A model generated the notes under the pieces. It was not told where the DNA came from. It saw only the letters and a list, made by a program, of their open reading frames with translations, and did not search any database. DNA of 64,000 bases from a virus (Duplodnaviria > Caudoviricetes): the IMG/VR virus record IMGVR_UViG_3300037501_000255, one strand, 5' to 3'. Positions 1 through 63,540 of the stretch are shown piece by piece. Within the stretch, counting starts at the first letter, position 1; each line of letters opens with the position of its first letter. A program made the translations under genes and the position numbers.

Positions 1-63
1 GATTCGAACCCGCGATGCCCTGAGTCACAGTCAAGTGCCTTAAGCCGCTCGGCCACGGCCACC
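1..63 (-). tRNA. tRNA-His(GUG), 3' end outside the window
   Basis: Reverse complement gives G-1 GTGGCCG, D arm GCCGAGCGGCTTAAGGC, anticodon arm CTTGA-CT GTG AC-TCAGG and T arm GCGGGTTCGAATC. Confidence 0.9.
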
Positions 64-66
64 ATA

Positions 67-804
67 TCAGATAACTACTGTTACCGCCTCGCCGCGTTCT
101 TTGAGCAGACGACCTAAATCATCAAATGATATGCAGAACCGACCACATTTTCCCCAGAATCTTCCCCAAGAATTTATGCCCCATACCAATTTCTTCTCAA
201 CATCTATTCCCAGCAATTCAAAGGCATGACCCCCTCGACGCTCCCCGGTTATCCTAACTCTGCCGGACAGGTCAGGCTTATCGAAACCGGCATACCAGTT
301 TACACCTACAGCGACGGGGCCAACATACGCAAGCGTACGCAAAACGTCCTCAATACCGAAACACCAGCGATATTCTTTAATCAACATCGCTTCCTTGGCG
401 GCCTTCATAGCCGAAAGTACGCTTGAGCCGGTATCTGTGGGAGGATATTGCCCGCTAAATTGATCAAGCTCTGTAGCGCGCGAATAAAGATCGATGGCCA
501 GGTTTTGTGAAAAATCCACATCATCACCCAACCCATCCAGATTGTTTGGGTTGGTTGCCAGCAGCCCGACGATAGCATTCCCCGTACAGGAACCTAGTTT
601 GCCCTGATTTAGGGGCGGAGTGTGGCGCTCCCACATCTTACTGCGTAGCTCAACAGGATGCCCGTCTAAAATGACACGGTAATCCTTGCTGCGCTCATCG
701 AACTTTACGTGACGACCGAGGCGTCGACTGAATACTCCTAGCCACCCTATCAGTCGCCCCCACCACGTCTGCAGCTCCGGAATTATTTCTACCACTAAGG
801 ACAT
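67..804 (-). CDS. Papain-like (C1A) cysteine peptidase
   Basis: QGKLGSCTGNA (oxyanion Gln and catalytic Cys), GGHAF (His) and INSWGRFWGKCG (Asn) motifs. Confidence 0.85.
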   Translation of the reverse strand: MSLVVEIIPELQTWWGRLIGWLGVFSRRLGRHVKFDERSKDYRVILDGHPVELRSKMWERHTPPLNQGKLGSCTGNAIVGLLATNPNNLDGLGDDVDFSQNLAIDLYSRATELDQFSGQYPPTDTGSSVLSAMKAAKEAMLIKEYRWCFGIEDVLRTLAYVGPVAVGVNWYAGFDKPDLSGRVRITGERRGGHAFELLGIDVEKKLVWGINSWGRFWGKCGRFCISFDDLGRLLKERGEAVTVVI

Positions 805-1074: not shown

Positions 1075-1383
1075 CTATATTACCCTACTCTTTTTAACTA
1101 CAAGATCTTCCCCGCAATCGGGACAGTATAGAAAATCTTCTCCTTTTAGAATCTTTCTAGCAAAGCTCTTAGCAGCATTCCCGAAGAACCTCTTCGACAA
1201 CTCTTCAGGCCACGGATGCTCACCTGATTCATAATGAACCTTTCCGTCCAGATCGATAGTCCACCAACCGCCTGGTAGGAGGAAGAGGTATTCACTGCGA
1301 GCTGGAAGAAAGAAATCGGCTCCAAAAGCCAGTTCTTCTGTTACATGTCCACAGGCGCACGTGAATGTATATTTCTTCCCCAT
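1075..1383 (-). CDS. Small Zn-ribbon-like hypothetical protein
   Basis: 102-aa ORF with CxC at the N-terminus and CPDCG at the C-terminus. Confidence 0.55.
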   Translation of the reverse strand: MGKKYTFTCACGHVTEELAFGADFFLPARSEYLFLLPGGWWTIDLDGKVHYESGEHPWPEELSKRFFGNAAKSFARKILKGEDFLYCPDCGEDLVVKKSRVI

Positions 1384-4542: not shown

Positions 4543-5571
4543 CTACCCACTCCATAAGAATATCGAAGCAATCTTCGCAAAGATCTAGGTCAAACACCTG
4601 TTCATCCCTGCGCGACTCGTATCCCCAATATGCAGTTAAATTGGCATGTTCGTAATTCATCTGACGCCTGCATGACTGTCCGCATCGATCACAAATAATA
4701 TCCGCTAGGGCTTCAACTACGGTCTCGACTCTGGTCATCCTCCTCATCTACGGGCTCCCGGATATCTCTAAAATGAGCAGTTAGAGCATTTAGTGCAAAA
4801 GTACGTATCTTCTGTGGCCAATTATTTTGGCTAAGTGCGATAGGTAGATTTGCCTTCCATAGTAGGAGCGCATAGGTGCGCGAGGCCGGCAAACCTGTCA
4901 TATTAAAACTACGCAAGTGTTTTAGTTGTGTGGAAAAGACTCTCTGAACTTTTCCAATCAGTTTGGGGTCTAAACTCTTTCTTAGCTCGGATTATAAGAT
5001 CTGGGCCGCCTCAGAGGCTCCAAAAAGATTCAATTCACTCATGTGCGATAGAGTTTTGTAGCCACCGGAATTACCCGTGTGGTTCTGTGAAATAGGAATA
5101 CGCTGCCTGTATGTAGATTTACTACAGTGTAACTTTCTTCGGAAGCTTGAGCGGTCAGAGGCCACAGATCAGTTTCTGAAATAGACTTCCCGAGATTTTT
5201 TACTGCAAACTCTGGCACAAAGGTACCGCAGGTCGGAAGATTTTCCAATTCAATGGCGGGCACTTCTGCTGTATCCGTTCGCAAAATCATCATACGTAGT
5301 TCCTGCGCGAGCAACAAATTCCGATAAGTAAAACCACCCCATCCGATCTGGGCTGTATCCGGGTGGCATCTGCGGTCGGTCAAGATCTATGCCATAGTAA
5401 TCGCGTCTTATATTTCCGGAATATAATCGATTATTTTCCCATAGTAGATCTATGCGGCGCTGAATCTCGGCAGAGATTACTTCAGCTATCTCGGGCACTT
5501 CTCTATTATAAACTTTAATTCTAGCCATTAGGTAGGCAAGCGTCTCTTTACTATAGCACTTCATAGTTAAT

Positions 5572-5701
5572 TGGTGGGGACGGAGGGACTCGAACCCTCA
5601 TGCTGTTTAGGCGCAGGAATCTTGGCGATTGGTGTCGGAGTCGAACCAACATATACCTTACCAATCAAATCCTGTGTGTCTACCAGTTCCACCACGTCCC
5701 C
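5572..5701 (-). tRNA. tRNA-Leu(UAG) interrupted by a 44-nt minihelix insert (5623-5666) between anticodon positions 34 and 35
   Basis: GGGGACG/CGTCCCC acceptor stem, Leu-type D arm and long variable arm. Removing 5623-5666 restores CAGGA-TT TAG AT-TCCTG. Confidence 0.85.
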
Positions 5702-7400: not shown

Positions 7401-7531
7401 TGGTGGCCTGAGAGGGACTCGAACCCTCATGCCTGTGAAGGCGGTTGATTTTTGGTGGAGGATATTGGAGTTGCACCAATCACACCTACGTCCCCCGAGT
7501 CAACTGTGTCTACCAGTTCCACCATCAGGCC
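7401..7531 (-). tRNA. tRNA-Leu(CAA) interrupted by a 44-nt minihelix insert (7453-7496) between anticodon positions 34 and 35
   Basis: GGCCTGA/TCAGGCC acceptor stem, Leu-type D arm and long variable arm. Removing 7453-7496 restores GTTGA-CT CAA AA-TCAAC. Confidence 0.88.
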
Positions 7532-7991
7532 AAAAAATCAATCTTTCAACGTCACCTCTGGTTTGCAGAATCTAAGAAAATCCTCTTTCATATATTTCCT
7601 GTGCATCTTTCCCAAGTCCGTTCTGCATACTCGTCGTTTCGGATTCTTCTCAAACCATTCGCACAAACCGGCCCACATTTAATTGGCGTCGCGCTGACCT
7701 AGAAGTCCATATACGATAAACATGTTATTCACCAATTGTCGTAGTCGGTCACATTCTTTTATTTATCAAAACATCGTACGCTGACGCCCGTGCCAATTGA
7801 CGTTGGGGCAAAGAGTAGCTACCCCCCCCCCATGGCTCCAGTATAGGGCCACTTGCCGCCGCCGGTAAGATGCTCAAAATCTTCCGGACTCATTTCCGCC
7901 CGCTGTTTTTCGATCAACTCCTGCTTACACTCTTCGATGAAAGCTTTGGCGGCTTCCAATTCCTTGCCGGAGATGGTGAATGTGCGACTGT

Positions 7992-8653: not shown

Positions 8654-8719
8654 TCGGTCAAGTGGGTACTGTGGACTGGTTCATTTTTGAGTAAAGATAA
8701 TCCACAGAAGTCGGACCGA
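8654..8719 (-). ncRNA. Y-RNA-like small RNA 2 (canonical topology)
   Basis: TCGGTCCGA-CTTCTGTGGA-TTATC-...-TCCACAG-TACCCA-CTTGACCGA; the upper stem CTGTGGA/TCCACAG pairs perfectly. Confidence 0.8.
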
Positions 8720-8721
8720 AA

Positions 8722-8773
8722 TGGTGGGGGGTGGATTCGAACCACCGACGCGGCCAATCTCCGCCTGCTCCCA
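8722..8773 (-). ncRNA. Free-standing mini-tRNA (one internal hairpin, T arm, CCA)
   Basis: TGGGAG-CAG-GCGG AGATTGG CCGC-GTC-GGTGG TTCGAAT CCACC-CCCC-A-CCA. Confidence 0.55.
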
Positions 8774-8781
8774 TAAATAAA

Positions 8782-8860
8782 TTAGGTCTAGTTGATGGCT
8801 AGAGTGCCCTGGTGGGCGGTTCATTTTGGGTAAACGATAATCTAACCAATTCGGACCTAA
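8782..8860 (-). ncRNA. Y-RNA-like small RNA 3 (canonical topology)
   Basis: TAGGTCCGA-ATTGGTTAGA-TTATC-...-CTCTAGCCAT-CAA-CTAGACCTA; shares the loop motif TTTACxCAAAATGAACC with RNA 2. Confidence 0.78.
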
Positions 8861-8865
8861 AGTAG

Positions 8866-8940
8866 TGGTAGCCCCTGCCGGATTTGAACCGACGACCTTA
8901 TCCGTGTAAAGGATCTGCTCTACCGCTGAGCTAAGGGGCT
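8866..8940 (-). tRNA. tRNA-Val(UAC)
   Basis: AGCCCCT...GATCC-TT TAC AC-GGATA...AGGGGCT A CCA. Confidence 0.93.
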
Positions 8941-8993: not shown

Positions 8994-9063
8994 TGGCAGG
9001 GGGGCTCGAACCCCCATCAACTATTTTGGAGACAGCCATTTTAGCTATTAAACTACACCACTA
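8994..9063 (-). tRNA. tRNA-Trp(CCA), 3' acceptor strand shortened
   Basis: GCTGT-CT CCA AA-ATAGT anticodon arm. The T arm is followed directly by TGCCA; the missing bases lie beside a C/G run, so assembly collapse is possible. Confidence 0.65.
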
Positions 9064-9078
9064 TCTTGAAGAATGATT

Positions 9079-9205
9079 TAGTGGGCCCGGTGGGACTCGA
9101 ACCCACACCGCTTTTATTCCAAAAAATGATAACGATTCTCTGTCGTACCCAAAGGGTCAGGTGGTGAGAACCACTAGTTTTGTGCTACCGTTACAACACG
9201 GGCCC
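9079..9205 (-). ncRNA. tRNA scaffold carrying a permuted Y-RNA-like helix instead of an anticodon arm
   Basis: GGGCCCG/CGGGCCC acceptor stem, D arm and T arm GTGGGTTCGAGTCCCAC; centre GGTTCTC-ACCA-CCTGACCC-TTT-GGGTACGA-CA-GAGAATCG-TTATC; 3' end ACTA. Confidence 0.65.
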
Positions 9206-9233
9206 GTGTATCAATATTAAACCATACTTCTTG

Positions 9234-9917
9234 ATGTCTAAAGTCAAGCTCCTCAGCCTAATTCTCGGCTGCCTCTTTCTCCTATTTGCTGGATGTAGAT
9301 CCAACCTAACTCACGAAGAGTTGCTTGCCTCGCGCATTGCCGAAGCAAGGCCGGCGATTGTTCATCTACTTGCGGAAGGTAGTAGTTGCTCCGCGTTTCA
9401 TGTTGGACACGAGCTTTTTATTACCGCAAGTCACTGTATCCGTCCCGATACGGAGTACATTATCGTAGATTCTGAGGATAATCCGTATGGGGTTCGCCCG
9501 ATACTTATTGATAGGGACCGGGATGTGACAGTGTTTGAGAGTAACGGATTTGAGGGCCAGCCCATGCAATTGTGGAATGAGCAGCTATACGGCTCTCCAA
9601 AGATAGGCTCTACGATAGTCAGTATGGGATTTCCAGGATATTATCTGCAAAACTTTGTTTTCGAAGAGGGTACCGTTCTAGACAAGAGAACTGATAATGG
9701 GGTGCGCCTTATCGTTAGTCGCGGAGTAAGTTATCCCGGAGAATCTGGTGGCCCAGTCATTTCATTGCAGAATGGTCAGGTGGTGGGGTTAGTACATGCA
9801 TTAGCGGAGCGTATTACCCACATAAATGACGATGTTCAAGTTCACAACACTTTAAGTCTGTTAGTTGCTTGGTCTGAAATAAGGACAGTCTTAGAGCAAG
9901 CTCGTAAGGTTAGATAA
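9234..9917 (+). CDS. Trypsin-like (S1) serine protease, predicted lipoprotein
   Basis: LLFAGC lipobox, TASHC, DRDVT and GESGGP motifs; start trimmed to ATG 9234. Confidence 0.85.
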   Translation: MSKVKLLSLILGCLFLLFAGCRSNLTHEELLASRIAEARPAIVHLLAEGSSCSAFHVGHELFITASHCIRPDTEYIIVDSEDNPYGVRPILIDRDRDVTVFESNGFEGQPMQLWNEQLYGSPKIGSTIVSMGFPGYYLQNFVFEEGTVLDKRTDNGVRLIVSRGVSYPGESGGPVISLQNGQVVGLVHALAERITHINDDVQVHNTLSLLVAWSEIRTVLEQARKVR

Positions 9918-9932
9918 CTTTAGGAGTTAACA

Positions 9933-10601
9933 ATGCTAATACGTAATATTCTAGCAGCTTTCATGCTGCTTGTAGTCAGCTCTTGCGCTATTTTCCGGCC
10001 GGCGCCAGTACAGGCTACGGTACAAGAATCGCGGGGTGCGGTGACGCACATCCTCTATGGGCAGCGTTCCTGCACAGCATTTCATATTGGGGATGGAAGA
10101 TTCATAACTGCCGCACATTGTTTCGGAGAGGATCTTGGAGGACCCATGGATGAGGTCCGCATGGTCAATGAACGCAATTTTCAATACTTCCCGAAAGTAG
10201 CGAAATTTAATAAGGCAAAAGATCTGGTGCTTTTGCTGGCCCCTGACTTTAAAGGGCCAGCGCTGTCCTTGTGGGATGGTGGATGGGACGGTCACATTCC
10301 GCGCGGAATGGAGCTCGTGGCTCTAGGATATCCTGGGTACTATGGTCTAGATTTCATCTTCGAGCATGGATTTATCAAAGATATAGTTAACTTTGAAGGG
10401 GTCGAGATGGTTGTCTCTGAGGAGGCGTCTTACTCCGGCGAGTCTGGTGGCCCCGTACTTTCTACTGCAAATGGAAAGGTTATCGGTATGGTAGATGCTG
10501 GTATAGAGCTTATTAATTGGCGTCGCTTTCCAATGCATGAGCATGTAAGCATTTCACTATTTGTGAGTGCCATGGAAATACGTGCTTTTCTAGCAAAGTA
10601 A
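9933..10601 (+). CDS. Trypsin-like (S1) serine protease paralogue, predicted lipoprotein
   Basis: VVSSC lipobox, TAAHC, KDLVLL and GESGGP motifs; tandem paralogue of the upstream gene. Confidence 0.85.
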   Translation: MLIRNILAAFMLLVVSSCAIFRPAPVQATVQESRGAVTHILYGQRSCTAFHIGDGRFITAAHCFGEDLGGPMDEVRMVNERNFQYFPKVAKFNKAKDLVLLLAPDFKGPALSLWDGGWDGHIPRGMELVALGYPGYYGLDFIFEHGFIKDIVNFEGVEMVVSEEASYSGESGGPVLSTANGKVIGMVDAGIELINWRRFPMHEHVSISLFVSAMEIRAFLAK

Positions 10602-11208: not shown

Positions 11209-11304
11209 TGGTGGGAGGGGTTGGATTTGAACCAACTTTAACCAGATAACCTTCTTCTATCGGACAATTCAGTCTAGTAGTTGAAGACGGATTTGTCACT
11301 TCCC
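11209..11304 (-). ncRNA. Minihelix (acceptor stem, T arm, CCA) carrying a permuted Y-RNA-like helix
   Basis: GGGAAGT...CCGTCTTC-AACTA-CTAGAC-TGAATT-GTCCGA-TA-GAAGAAGG-TTATC...GTTGG TTCAAAT CCAAC-CCCTCCC-A-CCA; no D arm. Confidence 0.7.
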
Positions 11305-11307
11305 AAG

Positions 11308-11436
11308 TGGTGGAGGGGGCTGGACTCGAACCAGCGACACAGGGCATTTCATGCGATAACCGATTTCTGTCGGAACAGGAGTTCAAAAAGTTGAAATCGA
11401 ATTTGTTCCCTGCTCTACCAACTAAGCTACTCCTCC
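11308..11436 (-). ncRNA. tRNA scaffold (Phe-like) with a permuted Y-RNA-like helix in the anticodon region
   Basis: GGAGGAG/CCCCTCC-A-CCA with canonical D and T arms; centre TCGATTTC...TTTGAAC-TCCT-GTTCCGA-CA-GAAATCGG-TTATC. Confidence 0.75.
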
Positions 11437-11746: not shown

Positions 11747-11869
11747 TGGCGGCGACATCCCGAATCGAACGGGAAACGCGCGTTTAACAGACGAGAATAA
11801 TCTTCAATCGGACCTCGGGTCGAGTGGCGAAGATCACTTTTTCGTGTGATACCATTTCACCATATCGCC
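11747..11869 (-). ncRNA. tRNA scaffold with a permuted Y-RNA-like helix
   Basis: GGCGATA/TGTCGCC-G-CCA, D arm GTGAAATGGTATCAC and a T arm; centre GATCTTC-GCCA-CTCGACC-CGA-GGTCCGA-TT-GAAGATT-ATTC. Confidence 0.75.
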
Positions 11870-11950
11870 ACATGAGGGTGCTTTTTGGTTTTCAGAAGTT
11901 TCCCCCTACGCCTCAGGCAGCTGATAGTTTTCTAACCGCCACCTCAAAAT

Positions 11951-12083
11951 ACTTCCTAGCAGGACTCGAACCCGCACAGATCATATCGATAATTCATACC
12001 ATCGGACAGAGTCAATAACCGGTATGGTCGGCTGGTCACCAGATTTCTCTGGTCGTACTTACCAATTAGTACGATATAGGAAG
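11951..12083 (-). ncRNA. tRNA scaffold with an extra hairpin and a permuted Y-RNA-like helix
   Basis: CTTCCTA/TAGGAAG acceptor stem, D-like GTACTAATTGGTAAGTAC, hairpin CCAGA-GAAA-TCTGG, then CCATACC...TTGAC-TCT-GTCCGA-TGGTATGAA-TTATC and a T arm; no encoded CCA. Confidence 0.65.
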
Positions 12084-20018: not shown

Positions 20019-21167
20019 TCATATATCTATTCTTTTTGAGAGAATAGAAATACACAATTCCTCGATCCTTTTCATGTCAGGCTTATGCGGAATTGAGTAC
20101 TTTTTTGTGTTGTAAATTTCAGTACAAAGAGCGTCTTCTGTTAGGAAGAACTCCTCCAGCTTGTCATAGCTCCACGCACCGGCACGGATGGCCACTAATT
20201 CATCTGAGTCGATACCCACTCTATTTACGTTTACTTTGCCATCTACAAGGATCTCGCGACACATTCTCATCAGTCTAACTAGATGACTGGCGTGCTTTGT
20301 ATCGTACCCGTACTTTTCCTCCAGAGCCGCACGCGCTGGATTTCGCGCTTTTTTCCACTGATGATATCGGGACCAATCATCTTGGGCATGACGAAATCTC
20401 CTCTCCTTTTCCAGGAGATGAATAAAGTTCTCATCATATCCAATGCTCCGGGCAGCACTCTTCCATTTAGAATCTGTAGTAGACATGATTTCGGCCAGCA
20501 TCAAATTGATCTTGCCCAAAATAGATATACGGTCAGCCTCTGAGGTGACAGCACTTAGATCTGTCTCCCACTCATCAGTTTTCTTTTGAATAGATGCCAC
20601 GGCGGCCTCTAGCTGATTCTTTGGTATTAGACCAACAGCAGGAAGATCAAATTCCTCACGTGTAGGCGGCCCTTTTGGTGGATTAAGGAGATAGCTCCTG
20701 TGTGTCTTGATGCGCTTAAACTGCGCAGCGGAGTACCCTGAGAAGGTATGCTTTGCCTTGGCTGACAGGAAGAGGTTGCCATTATCTCTAAGCTCCCTTC
20801 CCTCTTTAGAGCAAACTCTCACATGCGCATCATCACAAAACAGAACATCTAGAATGTTAGGATTCGCGTCAGCCGCAAGACTCATGAATTTGCGCAATTC
20901 GTATACTGATCCCTCGAGTTTTTCCCTATGAGAGATTTCACGTTCCTCATCGGACAGTAGCGGGAGGAAGGCTGCAATATTGTCCGGCGAATCAGCCTGC
21001 TCGAATGCATGATTCAAACCCAGATATGTTTCCATTGGAGGTATCGCAATACCCTTCACATCCACATCTGAATCTGCGCGATGGATCCCATATGCTCTGG
21101 AGCCCGCCAATGTCAGTAAGATAGTGTGCTTAACGAGGTCAAAGTACATGTCATCATCCCATCTCAA
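20019..21167 (-). CDS. Pol-beta superfamily nucleotidyltransferase (RlaP-like)
   Basis: AGSRAYG...DSDVDVKG, ANPNILDVLF and YDTKHASHLVRLMRM motifs. Confidence 0.85.
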   Translation of the reverse strand: MRWDDDMYFDLVKHTILLTLAGSRAYGIHRADSDVDVKGIAIPPMETYLGLNHAFEQADSPDNIAAFLPLLSDEEREISHREKLEGSVYELRKFMSLAADANPNILDVLFCDDAHVRVCSKEGRELRDNGNLFLSAKAKHTFSGYSAAQFKRIKTHRSYLLNPPKGPPTREEFDLPAVGLIPKNQLEAAVASIQKKTDEWETDLSAVTSEADRISILGKINLMLAEIMSTTDSKWKSAARSIGYDENFIHLLEKERRFRHAQDDWSRYHQWKKARNPARAALEEKYGYDTKHASHLVRLMRMCREILVDGKVNVNRVGIDSDELVAIRAGAWSYDKLEEFFLTEDALCTEIYNTKKYSIPHKPDMKRIEELCISILSKRIDI

Positions 21168-27269: not shown

Positions 27270-28229
27270 CTAGCGGATAACTCCTCCGCCAATCAACTCA
27301 TCGTCTCTGTAAACTGCGACAACCTGCCCTGTGCTTACGATGGTGCCTTCTGCAAGAGCAATATGCCCGCTCCCAATCTCTGAGACTGCGTACTTTTTAC
27401 CATGATATGCCACCTGCGCTGTCAGCATTCCGGATGCTTGGGGCATGTTCCGCCAGAGCACACGAATTTCCCTCGTGACCGGAACCTCCTTGCCAACCAA
27501 GATGCGCTTGGTATCCACAGATACAACGGTATCTCCGCCAAAGCCCTTACGCTGACCAATGGCCGGGCGTCCAGTGTAACGACCAATCTGGATTAGATCG
27601 CTGCCGCTTGACCTGACAACTTCACGATCAAAGGACGGTAGGAGGTGGTTAAAACACAAGTTCTGTGAATCTGGAGTTGACGCTGTCGATAGTCCAACCT
27701 CAGATGCAACTGATCGCACATCGCTCTTATGCATGTGGCCTAGTGGAGTCAGCCAGAATTTTAGCATCGCTCTGTCAACGAGACTCACCATATATGACTG
27801 GTCTTTTTTAGGATCTCGCCCTCGGAAGACGCGCCCACTATCGTTAATGAAGTAGTGCCCGCTGGCAAAATAATCACATTGGAGAACTTGCCTATAGTAG
27901 TTGAATAGCGGAGCGCGCACATCTGCATTGCACGTTGTGCAGGGGGAAGGTACGCCGCCGGCGGACCATACCTGAATGCTTGGATCAATTACCTTCTTCG
28001 TAAAGAGTTGCCGAACATCTGGAGTGTGGAGTGTGATGCCCAGCTTATCGCACACACTACGCGCTCGACTGATTGCCGACTCAGCGCAGCATACATAGTC
28101 ATCACAGTCAGTAGGCTCATTTACTTGCTTGAGAAGCACGCCCTCCACAAGGAAGCCTTGCTGCTGTAGTAGGTAGGCGGTTACACTGGAATCCACGCCG
28201 CCGCTGATACCGACCAAGACTTTGCTCAT
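27270..28229 (-). CDS. mnmA: tRNA 2-thiouridylase
   Basis: SGGVDSSV PP-loop, PSPCTTCN, SGHY, KDQSYM, DSQNLCF, IGQRKG and GQVVAVY motifs. Confidence 0.92.
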   Translation of the reverse strand: MSKVLVGISGGVDSSVTAYLLQQQGFLVEGVLLKQVNEPTDCDDYVCCAESAISRARSVCDKLGITLHTPDVRQLFTKKVIDPSIQVWSAGGVPSPCTTCNADVRAPLFNYYRQVLQCDYFASGHYFINDSGRVFRGRDPKKDQSYMVSLVDRAMLKFWLTPLGHMHKSDVRSVASEVGLSTASTPDSQNLCFNHLLPSFDREVVRSSGSDLIQIGRYTGRPAIGQRKGFGGDTVVSVDTKRILVGKEVPVTREIRVLWRNMPQASGMLTAQVAYHGKKYAVSEIGSGHIALAEGTIVSTGQVVAVYRDDELIGGGVIR

Positions 28230-28633
28230 GCACGAATCCATTTCGGATAGAGTTGACTGGCTATGTGAGTATGAGTGGCGGCTGGTTCTGGAATAATTAA
28301 TTACTTATCATTTTTACAGAACAGGCAATTGCCGAAATAGGCAGTTATGTGCCGAGAGCACATGATTCCTATTCCTAGGATGTTTACTGCCCTCCCACCA
28401 TACAGTAGGGGCTCAGGTTGAAGAGTGTGGTCGACCACCGGGAGTCTAATATATGGCTTATCAAGATTCTTTATTGGTTTCTTCATCTTCTAAAGATTCA
28501 AAGTCTATATCTGAAAGATGTAGGACTTCCTCACATTGTTCATGTGGCATGGCGCAGCATTCAGGACAATGGTATGCGCGGGGGGTGGGGTATATACCAA
28601 CCTCGGCCAGTGCATGCCTGGCTATATGGTAGG

Positions 28634-53190: not shown

Positions 53191-53412
53191 GAGTTTGCGG
53201 CGGGCCCATCTGCGGAGCGCCGGCCTTCTCTTGTGGTGATAGCGATTGCAGCAGTCGCAGTGCATTCCGCCAGGACCACGCTTTCCATGCATGATTTTTG
53301 CCATCGGATCAGCCTGTGTCCTCCAAAAGAAAACCAGCGGGGTTGGCTACCCGCATCTCCCGGATACAATCCGGGGCTTTAATTAAGCTATGGTTAAGGG
53401 ATTGGTCTAAAA

Positions 53413-53736
53413 GGCGTCGGTGGGGCATTTGTTTTCAACCATAGAAAGATAACCCGCTAACTGTCGGACCAAAAGAGAGTCGGGTCAAAAGAGCGGCTAT
53501 GGGGATTGTCTGGTAAATATAGATAACCCATGTGCCTGCAGACCCAGAAAAGGTGCGATACGGTAGTTGCGGCGGCATCACAACCCCGTAATTTTTACGA
53601 TACATCTGTCTGGTATTCAACTTTCCGGCGTGTAGTGCGGCGCCTGGAACTTTACTCGTCAGAACAGATTATCCTTGCCCTTACCTCGCTACCGTATCGC
53701 AGGGGTAGTATGGGACGAGGTGGGTGGTTGGACGCC
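53413..53736 (-). ncRNA. ~325-nt structured RNA containing a permuted Y-RNA-like helix
   Basis: Terminal GGCGTC/GACGCC stem; perfect 13-bp long-range stem 53554-53566/53689-53701; TTGACC (53488-53483), GGTCCGA (53470-53464), TTATC (53452-53448). Confidence 0.6.
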
Positions 53737-62466: not shown

Positions 62467-63540
62467 CTACTCTCCAATCTTCAATAGGAATGCGTTGTTG
62501 ATTGCCTTGAATGATGTGCGAGCGGCGCCGCCACCATTGAATGCAGTCAGCACAGGAGAGCGGCACTCCGTGGTAGGACGAATGACGATGCCTTCACGAG
62601 GATGTCCGTTTGCGTACTTACCCTCCGCACGTTTGAGAATCGACTCCAGTGTCTCATCCAGCGGCCCTACCCATTCAATCGGAACCGTAGGAATACCGGC
62701 CATGTCACAGAAGTGCAGGAAGTCTCGGAAGTCGAGAAAATCCTGACGCTCAATCGAGTATACCTGAAAGGCGTAGAATTCTTTCTGCTTCAATCCAATG
62801 CGATTCGCCTGAATACCTGGACCACAGAACTCTCCCTGCACTGCGAATCCCTGCGGAATTCGCTCGAAAATGCGCAACTGTCGGGCCATTTGCCAGTGCG
62901 GAGAATCTGGCAAATCCTTGACCGCGTAGTTGCGCATGCAGACTTTATGAGTGTCGACCCCGCCGTCGTTGTACCGGGCAAACGTCAAACTCTGCCCGTC
63001 CATCTTGACTGCGATGTAGCACTCCGCACCACGCAATTCATCTAGAATTTCCGGCACAGCCTGTACGCGCGTCTCGTCAGTCTTTGGGAATAGGTGCGTG
63101 GGAAAGGCGCCCCCGACTTCGCGGGCAGATGCATGAATCGGCGGCTTCCATTTGGTAACACCCAGAGCCTCGGTTACATCAAGGCCCTCAGTAGGGGTGA
63201 TGCCCGCAGGGAGAATAGATACAGGTAGGGCAAGACCCTGTGAAAGCACTCCGCGCAGACGCTTCGAACGAAGCTTGAAGTTGTCAGGCCGAGGTACTCG
63301 GGGCTGAGGGATAGCGGTGCCATGTTCATCCACCTTGGGTGAGGGCTGCCAGAGGAAGTCGAACGTTGCAGTGTCGGGAGGAACACTGTCAATCTCGAGG
63401 AATACGCAAAGGTCATCGGGTCGGAAGTTGCCTTTGCCCGACACCAACTGCCAGCCTAGTACCTTCAACCGTTCGATCTTGTCCGCGCCCCCGATAGGAT
63501 CGACGGATCGCACACGCTGCACAGAGGCGAGTTTACGCAT
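62467..63540 (-). CDS. RNA ligase (DRB0094/Rnl5-like) with an N-terminal OB domain
   Basis: MRKLASVQ, CVFLEIDS, FPKTDETRVQ, AVKMDGQS (KxDG), QGEFCGPGIQ, EGIVIR and SFKAINN motifs. Confidence 0.92.
   Translation of the reverse strand: MRKLASVQRVRSVDPIGGADKIERLKVLGWQLVSGKGNFRPDDLCVFLEIDSVPPDTATFDFLWQPSPKVDEHGTAIPQPRVPRPDNFKLRSKRLRGVLSQGLALPVSILPAGITPTEGLDVTEALGVTKWKPPIHASAREVGGAFPTHLFPKTDETRVQAVPEILDELRGAECYIAVKMDGQSLTFARYNDGGVDTHKVCMRNYAVKDLPDSPHWQMARQLRIFERIPQGFAVQGEFCGPGIQANRIGLKQKEFYAFQVYSIERQDFLDFRDFLHFCDMAGIPTVPIEWVGPLDETLESILKRAEGKYANGHPREGIVIRPTTECRSPVLTAFNGGGAARTSFKAINNAFLLKIGE

What the first reader, a model, noticed from the sequence alone, without database searches (positions are those of the whole stretch)
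8722..8773. Free-standing 52-nt mini-tRNA sandwiched between two Y-like RNAs
Seen: acceptor-like ends, a single GCGG/CCGC hairpin, a perfect T arm and ACCA, but no D arm. It resembles the minihelix introns and the minihelix-Y fusion at 11209-11304. Inference: the phage reuses the minihelix as a modular processing signal. Here it could act as an RNase P/CCA punctuation mark that releases the flanking Y RNAs from a polycistron, as tRNAs do in mitochondria.
Basis: partly seen in the sequence, partly recalled or inferred. Interest (0 to 1): 0.6.

Follow-up and report, generated by a model that had tools for sequence, protein, structure and literature searches.

The report
Phage anticodon-less mini-tRNA behind Y RNA
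A 51-base RNA shaped like a tRNA without its anticodon arm sits between two Y-like RNA genes of a giant freshwater phage; related phages keep it at the same spot, so it is a real conserved element, probably a cutting mark for the host's tRNA-trimming enzymes, although this phage's copy has a shortened stem.

Summary
The element is real (minus strand, G+1 at 8772 to 8722) and not an assembly collapse: the same letters stand in three assemblies from three samples. Five related phage lineages carry a counterpart at the same slot. It is 92% identical to the L193 copy while fourfold-degenerate sites of flanking genes are 24-38% identical, with compensatory changes in the hairpin and T stem. Two corrections: the hairpin loop (AGAUUGG) matches D loops (219/449) and no anticodon loop (0/449), so the anticodon arm is what is missing; and this copy's acceptor stem is only 3 bp, three bases shorter on the 3' side than L193's, against 5-7 bp in relatives. 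All copies keep a terminal helix starting at G, five behind a UUUA(U/C) leader; two have lost the T arm. Best reading (0.5): a t-element-like mark at which RNase P makes the 3' end of the upstream Y RNA and CCA-side processing frees the next RNA. No RNA data test this, and some Y RNAs here have no such spacer. No Rfam family or paper found; the scan noted similar top-half tRNA mimics in other phages.

The parts
8722..8772 (-). Anticodon-less mini-tRNA, 51 nt from G+1 to CCA
   Evidence: counterparts in L193, L227, L218, L228, L191, L211
8768..8772 (-). 5' acceptor strand GGGAG; only GGG can pair in this copy (all five pair in L193/L227)
8750..8764 (-). 4-bp hairpin with loop AGAUUGG: D-loop-like (A14, G15, G18G19) but without residues 20-21
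8747..8749 (-). Variable-loop-like GUC; last base is C48, partner of G15 in the commonest Levitt pair (217/449)
   Evidence: the contact itself is inferred
8730..8746 (-). Canonical T arm, 5 Watson-Crick pairs, loop UUCGAAU
8722..8729 (-). Short 3' acceptor strand CCCC plus ACCA; three bases fewer than in L193/L227
8773..8781 (-). U/A-rich leader ending UUUAU; would stay on Y1 as its 3' tail after a cut at G+1
   Evidence: UUUA(U/C) in five lineages
8782..8860 (-). Upstream Y-like RNA (Y1), GGUCCGA ... UAGACC closing stem
   Evidence: z -5.3; 85% identical to L193 Y1
8654..8719 (-). Downstream Y-like RNA (Y2); first paired base lies 2 nt behind the CCA
   Evidence: z -3.3
8866..8940 (-). tRNA-Val(UAC); its CCA ends 5 nt before the Y1 stem

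Best explanation
It is a tRNA-derived, non-decoding 'top half' element (acceptor helix, D-like hairpin, T arm, CCA) that marks a cut site in the polycistronic tRNA-Val / Y1 / mini / Y2 transcript. Host RNase P cuts before G+1 and so makes the 3' end of Y1 (with a 9-13 nt U/A tail that exonucleases can trim); cleavage and trimming on the CCA side frees the 5' end of the next RNA, as tRNA-Val does for Y1. Shown: structure, synteny, conservation, compensatory changes, RNase P site features. Inferred: co-transcription, the D/T elbow contact, every cleavage. The window allele has a shorter acceptor and is probably a weaker substrate, cut (if at all) by RCCA guidance and not by the 12-bp ruler.
For: Same slot behind Y1 in window, L193/L227, L218, L228, L211 group; in L191 it starts 5 nt after the stop codon of an ORF lying between Y1 and it. 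47/51 identity with L193 and 44/51 with L218 against 24-38% (L193) and 38-52% (L186/L218) at fourfold sites; spacers and tRNA-Val differ, which argues against recent block transfer. All 43 cells of hairpin and T stem pair, one hairpin pair shows G-C, U-A and A-U. What survives in every lineage is a terminal helix starting at G; L228 and L211, which lost the T arm, fold as long hairpins (z -3.4, -2.5), like the pre-SRP and C4 RNA substrates of RNase P (PMC10731613). Leader A(-2)U(-1)G(+1) is described as optimal there; UUUA(U/C) precedes five lineages, and 22/48 true tRNAs of the clade have A-pyrimidine at -2/-1. Short hairpin substrates with RCCA are cut by E. coli RNase P RNA in vitro (PMC3874170). 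CCA-to-Y-stem distance is 2-5 nt for both tRNA-Val/Y1 and mini/Y2 in the window. L200 lacks both Y RNA and mini at this spot (one event).
Against: No processing data. Window acceptor is 3 bp; acceptor plus T stem gives 8-9 bp, not 12; Chen et al. saw RNase P cleavage only for the YrlA with a 7-bp acceptor stem (PMC4201824). The three-arm fold is disfavoured in this copy. Y2 and Y3 stand in tandem without a tRNA-like spacer in L193/L227, and Y-like RNAs at 2234 and 53470 have no tRNA in front, so Y RNAs do not need it. In L218/L228 a degenerate tRNA follows, not a Y RNA. CCA is not encoded in L218, L228, L191 (nor in 13/48 true tRNAs of the clade). Sequence conservation of the hairpin loop is more than a cut mark obviously needs. 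Only six lineages.
Confidence: 0.5

Rival explanations
1. The released mini-tRNA is itself the product: a small elbow mimic that acts in trans, as decoy for tRNA-sensing or tRNA-cutting defence proteins, or as cargo or regulator of the Ro60-Y RNA particle. Processing is then only the way it is made.
For: Loop AGAYUGG and G15/C48 are kept in sequence across lineages with largely saturated silent sites. D/T elbow mimicry is the conserved feature of YrlA, tmRNA and TYMV TLS (bioRxiv 10.1101/312249). The window encodes RNA repair proteins: RlaP, RNA ligase, 2H phosphoesterase family, HAD-SAK.
Against: Two of six lineages lost the T arm, and the acceptor varies from 3 to 7 bp, which a specific ligand should not tolerate. 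It has no Ro-binding stem of its own. No conserved aminoacylation mark (no G3.U70, discriminator A or G).
Confidence: 0.25
2. The family was functional, but the window allele is a decaying copy: the 3-nt loss broke the acceptor stem and the RNA now misfolds, so it does nothing here.
For: Different lesions in different lineages (short acceptor in window and L193, T arm lost in L228 and L211, insertion in L191); predicted misfold only in the window copy; other degenerate tRNAs in the cluster (8994-9060; L218/L228 downstream cloverleaf); L228 lost the T arm although 75% of fourfold sites still match L218.
Against: The shorter allele puts G+1-C72 directly before ACCA, and both predicted folds keep these end pairs; everything else is intact; lineages that lost the T arm regained a stable hairpin; the allele is the same in all three assemblies.
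Confidence: 0.22
3. Assembly artefact: an ordinary tRNA gene collapsed at a G run.
For: A six-G run lies where the acceptor strand is short; only contigs, not raw reads, could be laid.
Against: Same letters in a Logan and two JGI assemblies; relatives show the same arm-less build; the L193 difference includes a T, so it is not a run-length change; about 20 further bases would be needed for a tRNA.
Confidence: 0.03

Closest known systems
t-elements of plant mitochondria (Forner et al. 2007, PMC1920247)
   Same: Non-canonical tRNA-like fold with an intact T arm at the border of neighbouring RNAs; even bare acceptor-like stem-loops are proposed to direct RNase P or Z.
   Different: Phage, not organelle; separates non-coding RNAs; conserved as a family; ends not mapped here.
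YrlA tRNA-like domain (Rfam RF02553; PMC4201824; bioRxiv 10.1101/312249)
   Same: D, T and acceptor elements without an anticodon loop, associated with Y RNAs; M. smegmatis YrlA is cut by RNase P, gets CCA, and comes with YrlB from one precursor.
   Different: YrlA is permuted and carries the Ro-binding stem in the same molecule; here the tRNA-like part is a separate, unpermuted unit with open ends; no Rfam match.
mascRNA / menRNA (RF01684); comparison from my own knowledge plus PMC4919913
   Same: About 60-nt tRNA mimic whose RNase P cut makes the 3' end of the upstream non-coding RNA.
   Different: Vertebrate, 7-bp acceptor, has a small third arm; no Rfam match or sequence relation.
[quoted passage not shown]
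   Same: U-1/G+1 site, RCCA, helix with or without T loop.
   Different: Those have a stem of about 12 bp and are the functional RNA themselves; the window copy has 8-9 bp.
Minihelix introns of this phage clade (tRNA-Leu 5575-5701, 7404-7531; tRNA-Val of relatives)
   Same: Acceptor helix, T arm and CCA in a short unit.
   Different: Introns sit inside an anticodon and lack the D-like hairpin; sequence likeness to intron 1 is mostly limited to the T arm.

Membership tests
canonical tRNA (RF00005) | 7-bp acceptor stem | tested here: not met
   3 bp in window, 5 in L193/L227, 7 in L218, L191, L211
canonical tRNA (RF00005) | Anticodon arm with Y32-U33 loop | tested here: not met
   Loop starts A-G; 0/449 anticodon loops do, 437/449 have U33
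canonical tRNA (RF00005) | D arm with A14, R15, G18G19, A21 | tested here: inconclusive
   AG..GG pattern as in 219/449 D loops, but the loop ends at GG, as only 4/449 do
canonical tRNA (RF00005) | 5-bp T stem, UUCRANY loop, 3' NCCA | tested here: met
canonical tRNA (RF00005) | Score above Rfam threshold or ARAGORN call | tested here: not met
YrlA (RF02553) | Ro-binding stem in the same RNA | tested here: not met
   The GUCCGA motif lies only in the flanking RNAs, whose stems close on themselves
YrlA (RF02553) | Permuted order T arm, closed acceptor, D arm | tested here: not met
   Order is acceptor, hairpin, T arm, acceptor, CCA; no Rfam hit
t-element | Non-canonical tRNA fold with GGTTCRANYCC T arm | tested here: met
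t-element | Ends coincide with mapped termini of neighbouring RNAs | not testable with these tools
   Needs RNA end data
bacterial RNase P substrate | A(-2)U(-1), G(+1) paired to C72, 3' RCCA | tested here: met
   8774 A, 8773 U, 8772 G, ACCA (consensus from PMC10731613)
bacterial RNase P substrate | 12-bp acceptor plus T stem stack | tested here: not met
   8-9 bp in window, 10 in L193/L227; 12 in L218 and L191
bacterial RNase P substrate | Cleavage at G+1 | not testable with these tools
   Needs an in vitro assay or end mapping
mascRNA/menRNA (RF01684) | Covariance-model match | tested here: not met
   No hit at E up to 10 in window or up to 5 in four related loci
minihelix intron of this clade | Inserted inside the anticodon of a host tRNA | tested here: not met
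   Flanks are Y-like RNAs, not tRNA halves

The most novel reading that the evidence does not exclude
Jumbo phages use dedicated anticodon-less mini-tRNAs to punctuate Y RNA polycistrons, a viral counterpart of mitochondrial t-elements and mascRNA, and the released elbow mimic then works with the phage Ro60-Y particle or as a decoy against tRNA-targeting defence.
Probability: 0.2. Interest if true: 0.7.

Novelty: new variant of a known kind. Interest (0 to 1): 0.42.

Why it matters
How bacterial and phage Y RNAs get their ends is barely known (one case, M. smegmatis YrlA/YrlB from a single precursor, PMC4201824). This locus offers a natural allelic series at one slot - 12-bp stack, 10-bp, 8-9-bp, and T-arm-less hairpins - that makes tRNA-style punctuation of Y RNAs directly testable in vitro and shows how far a tRNA can be pared down. 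It also shows that tRNA finders miss conserved RNA genes inside phage tRNA clusters. The importance is moderate: tRNA-like cut marks are a known principle, the family is so far confined to one small phage clade, and this copy may be failing.

Tried and rejected
No whole genome held; related contigs not searchable by handle, so the Ro60 gene could not be checked. Sequencing runs: no RNA holder listed; X2 holds only small pieces, none listed across the element. Pattern scans: T arm-CCA-GGTCCGA in viral contigs gave ordinary tRNAs; a loose Y pattern gave noise; hairpin plus T arm patterns gave no ortholog in viral contigs, GTDB genomes or JGI metagenomes. These scans need exact motifs and did not return the known JGI copies either, so they do not show absence. 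BLAST against cultured phages hit only T arms, mostly tRNA-Phe or tRNA-Pro. Protein-guided scans of viral and metagenome contigs failed; all relatives came from homolog search plus contig look-up. A descriptor search over 1.88 Mb of fetched loci (850 perfect T arms) found the AG..GG mini build only in L193, L227, L218; it missed the window copy because of its weak acceptor, and gave four unrelated one-hairpin candidates. One search used a mistyped pattern; intron 2 was cut about 10 nt off, so that one comparison is approximate. Considered and set aside: 5'-truncated tRNA-Tyr or -Phe with GAGCA as positions 22-26 (relatives pair these bases as an acceptor stem); a specific parent tRNA (nearest T arms are Met and Phe, no clear donor); one long RNA joining Y1 and the mini (Y stems close independently). 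Promoter and terminator scan: no signal inside the array on the coding strand, weak evidence only. Paper searches found no description of this element.

Full report
What is there. The finding lies on the minus strand inside a tRNA cluster (11 tRNAs and a tmRNA by ARAGORN) of a large phage; the contig look-ups give a longest contig of 367,953 bases and run X1 is a freshwater metagenome. The order is tRNA-Val (8940-8866), Y-like RNA 1 (8860-8782), a U/A-rich leader, the element (8772-8722), Y-like RNA 2 (8719-8654), then a 128-aa gene. The element reads: GGGAG, linker CAG, hairpin GCGG/CCGC with loop AGAUUGG, GUC, a perfect T arm, CCCC, ACCA. A perfect T arm with CCA close behind is expected 0.005 times per shuffled window. 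Neither ARAGORN nor Rfam calls it. The flanking RNAs fold far better than shuffles (z -5.3, -3.3) and score below threshold on Y RNA and nematode sbRNA models; I treat them as Y-like, not proven Ro60 partners.

Not an artefact. The Logan contig of X1 matches 11 kb without a difference (probably the source sample), and two JGI assemblies from other samples have the same 651 bases. Relatives show the same arm-less build, so it is not a collapsed tRNA.

Relatives. Homologs of neighbouring proteins led to syntenic contigs. L193 and its strain L227 have tRNA-Val, Y1, the element, Y2 and a third Y: hairpin GCUG/CAGC, same T arm, 5-bp acceptor GGGAG/CUCCC; a C-to-A change between the strains falls in the linker and fits this register. 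L218 has a perfect 7-bp acceptor, the window's hairpin, a T arm with two changes that keep pairing, and no encoded CCA. L228, close to L218, keeps acceptor and hairpin sequence but has lost the T arm and refolds as one long hairpin. L191 has a 7-bp acceptor, a longer middle arm and the L218 T arm, and starts 5 nt after the stop of an ORF lying behind Y1. The L211 group has, between two Y RNAs, a 7-bp helix plus ACCA around a different hairpin; its homology rests on position and ends, not on internal sequence. L200 has neither Y RNA nor element at this place.

Selection. Window versus L193: 47 of 51 aligned bases are identical (92%), Y1 85%, while fourfold-degenerate sites in three flanking genes are 24-38% identical; versus L218 44/51. 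Spacers and tRNA-Val differ, which argues against a recent block swap. On the six-row alignment all 43 cells of hairpin and T stem pair; one hairpin pair appears as G-C, U-A and A-U, one T-stem pair as U-A and A-U (2 of 500 shuffles, which is not a probability, and few sequences). The family is therefore under selection on structure.

Which arm is missing. Among 449 tRNAs parsed from the fetched loci, the pattern AG, 1-3 bases, GG fits 219 D loops and no anticodon loop; none of the anticodon loops starts AG. The element also has G15 and C48 equivalents, the commonest Levitt pair. The loop ends directly at GG, which only 4 of 449 D loops do, so an elbow contact is plausible but unproven.

The window allele is the weakest. 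It has three bases fewer in the 3' acceptor strand than L193, leaving 3 G-C pairs and an A.C gap. The three-arm fold has probability 0.90-1.00 in L193, L227, L218 and L191 but 0.04-0.08 here, where a long irregular hairpin is predicted 1.9-3.2 kcal/mol lower (no tertiary contacts or modifications in this model). Both folds keep GGG/CCC at the ends with the ACCA tail.

Mechanism. Bacterial RNase P reads a 12-bp acceptor/T stack, the T loop, 3' RCCA and an optimal A(-2)U(-1)/G(+1) site, and also cuts plain helices such as pre-SRP and phage C4 RNA (PMC10731613; PMC4919913). The window copy meets the site and RCCA features and fails the 12 bp; L218 and L191 meet the 12 bp and lack encoded CCA, as 13 of 48 true tRNAs of the clade do. 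Five lineages have UUUA(U/C) before G+1; 22 of 48 true tRNAs have A-pyrimidine there. What all lineages share is a G-started terminal helix close behind an upstream RNA or ORF. That fits a cut mark better than a specific ligand. I put this at 0.5. Against it: no RNA data; YrlA was cut only with a 7-bp stem (PMC4201824); Y2-Y3 in L193/L227 and the lone Y-like RNAs at 2234 and 53470 do without such a spacer; and the hairpin loop is conserved in sequence, which suits a trans-acting elbow mimic (0.25). The window allele may simply be decaying (0.22).

Comparison with what is known. It works like plant mitochondrial t-elements (PMC1920247) and mascRNA, and is built like the tRNA half of YrlA without permutation. 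It is not a member of tRNA, YrlA or mascRNA families by the tests listed. It is not a copy of the phage's minihelix introns or of 11209-11304. I found no Rfam family and no paper on it. Earlier notes of this scan report top-half tRNA mimics in other phages, some beside Ro60-like genes; these are unchecked leads, not support, and I did not show homology to them.

Verdict. Real, conserved, undescribed as far as I could search; a new variant of a known kind. Interest 0.42.

Noticed in passing
L193 -4974..4883; L227 +2064-2182; L228 +57-165; L186 -155..46: The tRNA directly upstream of Y1 (tRNA-Val in L193, L227, L228) carries a roughly 44-nt minihelix insert in the anticodon in these relatives but not in the window, L191 or L200; the inserts differ in sequence between lineages, so these introns come and go at a third tRNA gene.
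   Followed up: partly
L218 +97-170; L228 +305-385: A second degenerate cloverleaf follows the mini-tRNA directly, in place of Y2.
   Followed up: partly
window 53404-53470 (-): A further Y-like sequence (GGUCCGA, UUAUC, UAGACC) far outside the tRNA cluster, with no tRNA in front; folding with its flank is not better than shuffles.
   Followed up: partly
window 8994-9060 (-): Degenerate tRNA (Rfam 42 bits, missed by ARAGORN); relatives have a tRNA-Trp(CCA) with long variable arm at this slot (L186, L193).
   Followed up: no
window 9079-9206, 11209-11436, 11750-11870, 11950-12080 (-): tRNA-shaped genes with a permuted Y module in the anticodon arm; orthologs stand at the same slots in L186, L187, L189, L191, L193, L200, L210, L217.
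   Followed up: partly
window 9180-10601 (+): Two tandem trypsin-like peptidase genes on the opposite strand in the middle of the tRNA cluster, conserved across the clade.
   Followed up: no
L227 +1350-2060; L193 4981-5700 (-): A roughly 700-nt ORF with cysteine pairs, HNH-like by eye, inserted between tRNA-Trp and tRNA-Val; absent in the window.
   Followed up: no
window 20019-21167, 62467-63540, 27270-28241 (-) and smaller ORFs: RNA repair and modification genes: RlaP, RNA ligase, tRNA thiolase-type (tRNA_Me_trans), 2H phosphoesterase, HAD-SAK, Macro domain.
   Followed up: no
L011 -1252..1150; L017 +7880-7950; L172 -5558; L133 +2546: In unrelated viral contigs: tRNAs followed within a few bases by Y-like hairpins (L011, L017) and other one-hairpin tRNA-like units (L172, L133).
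   Followed up: no
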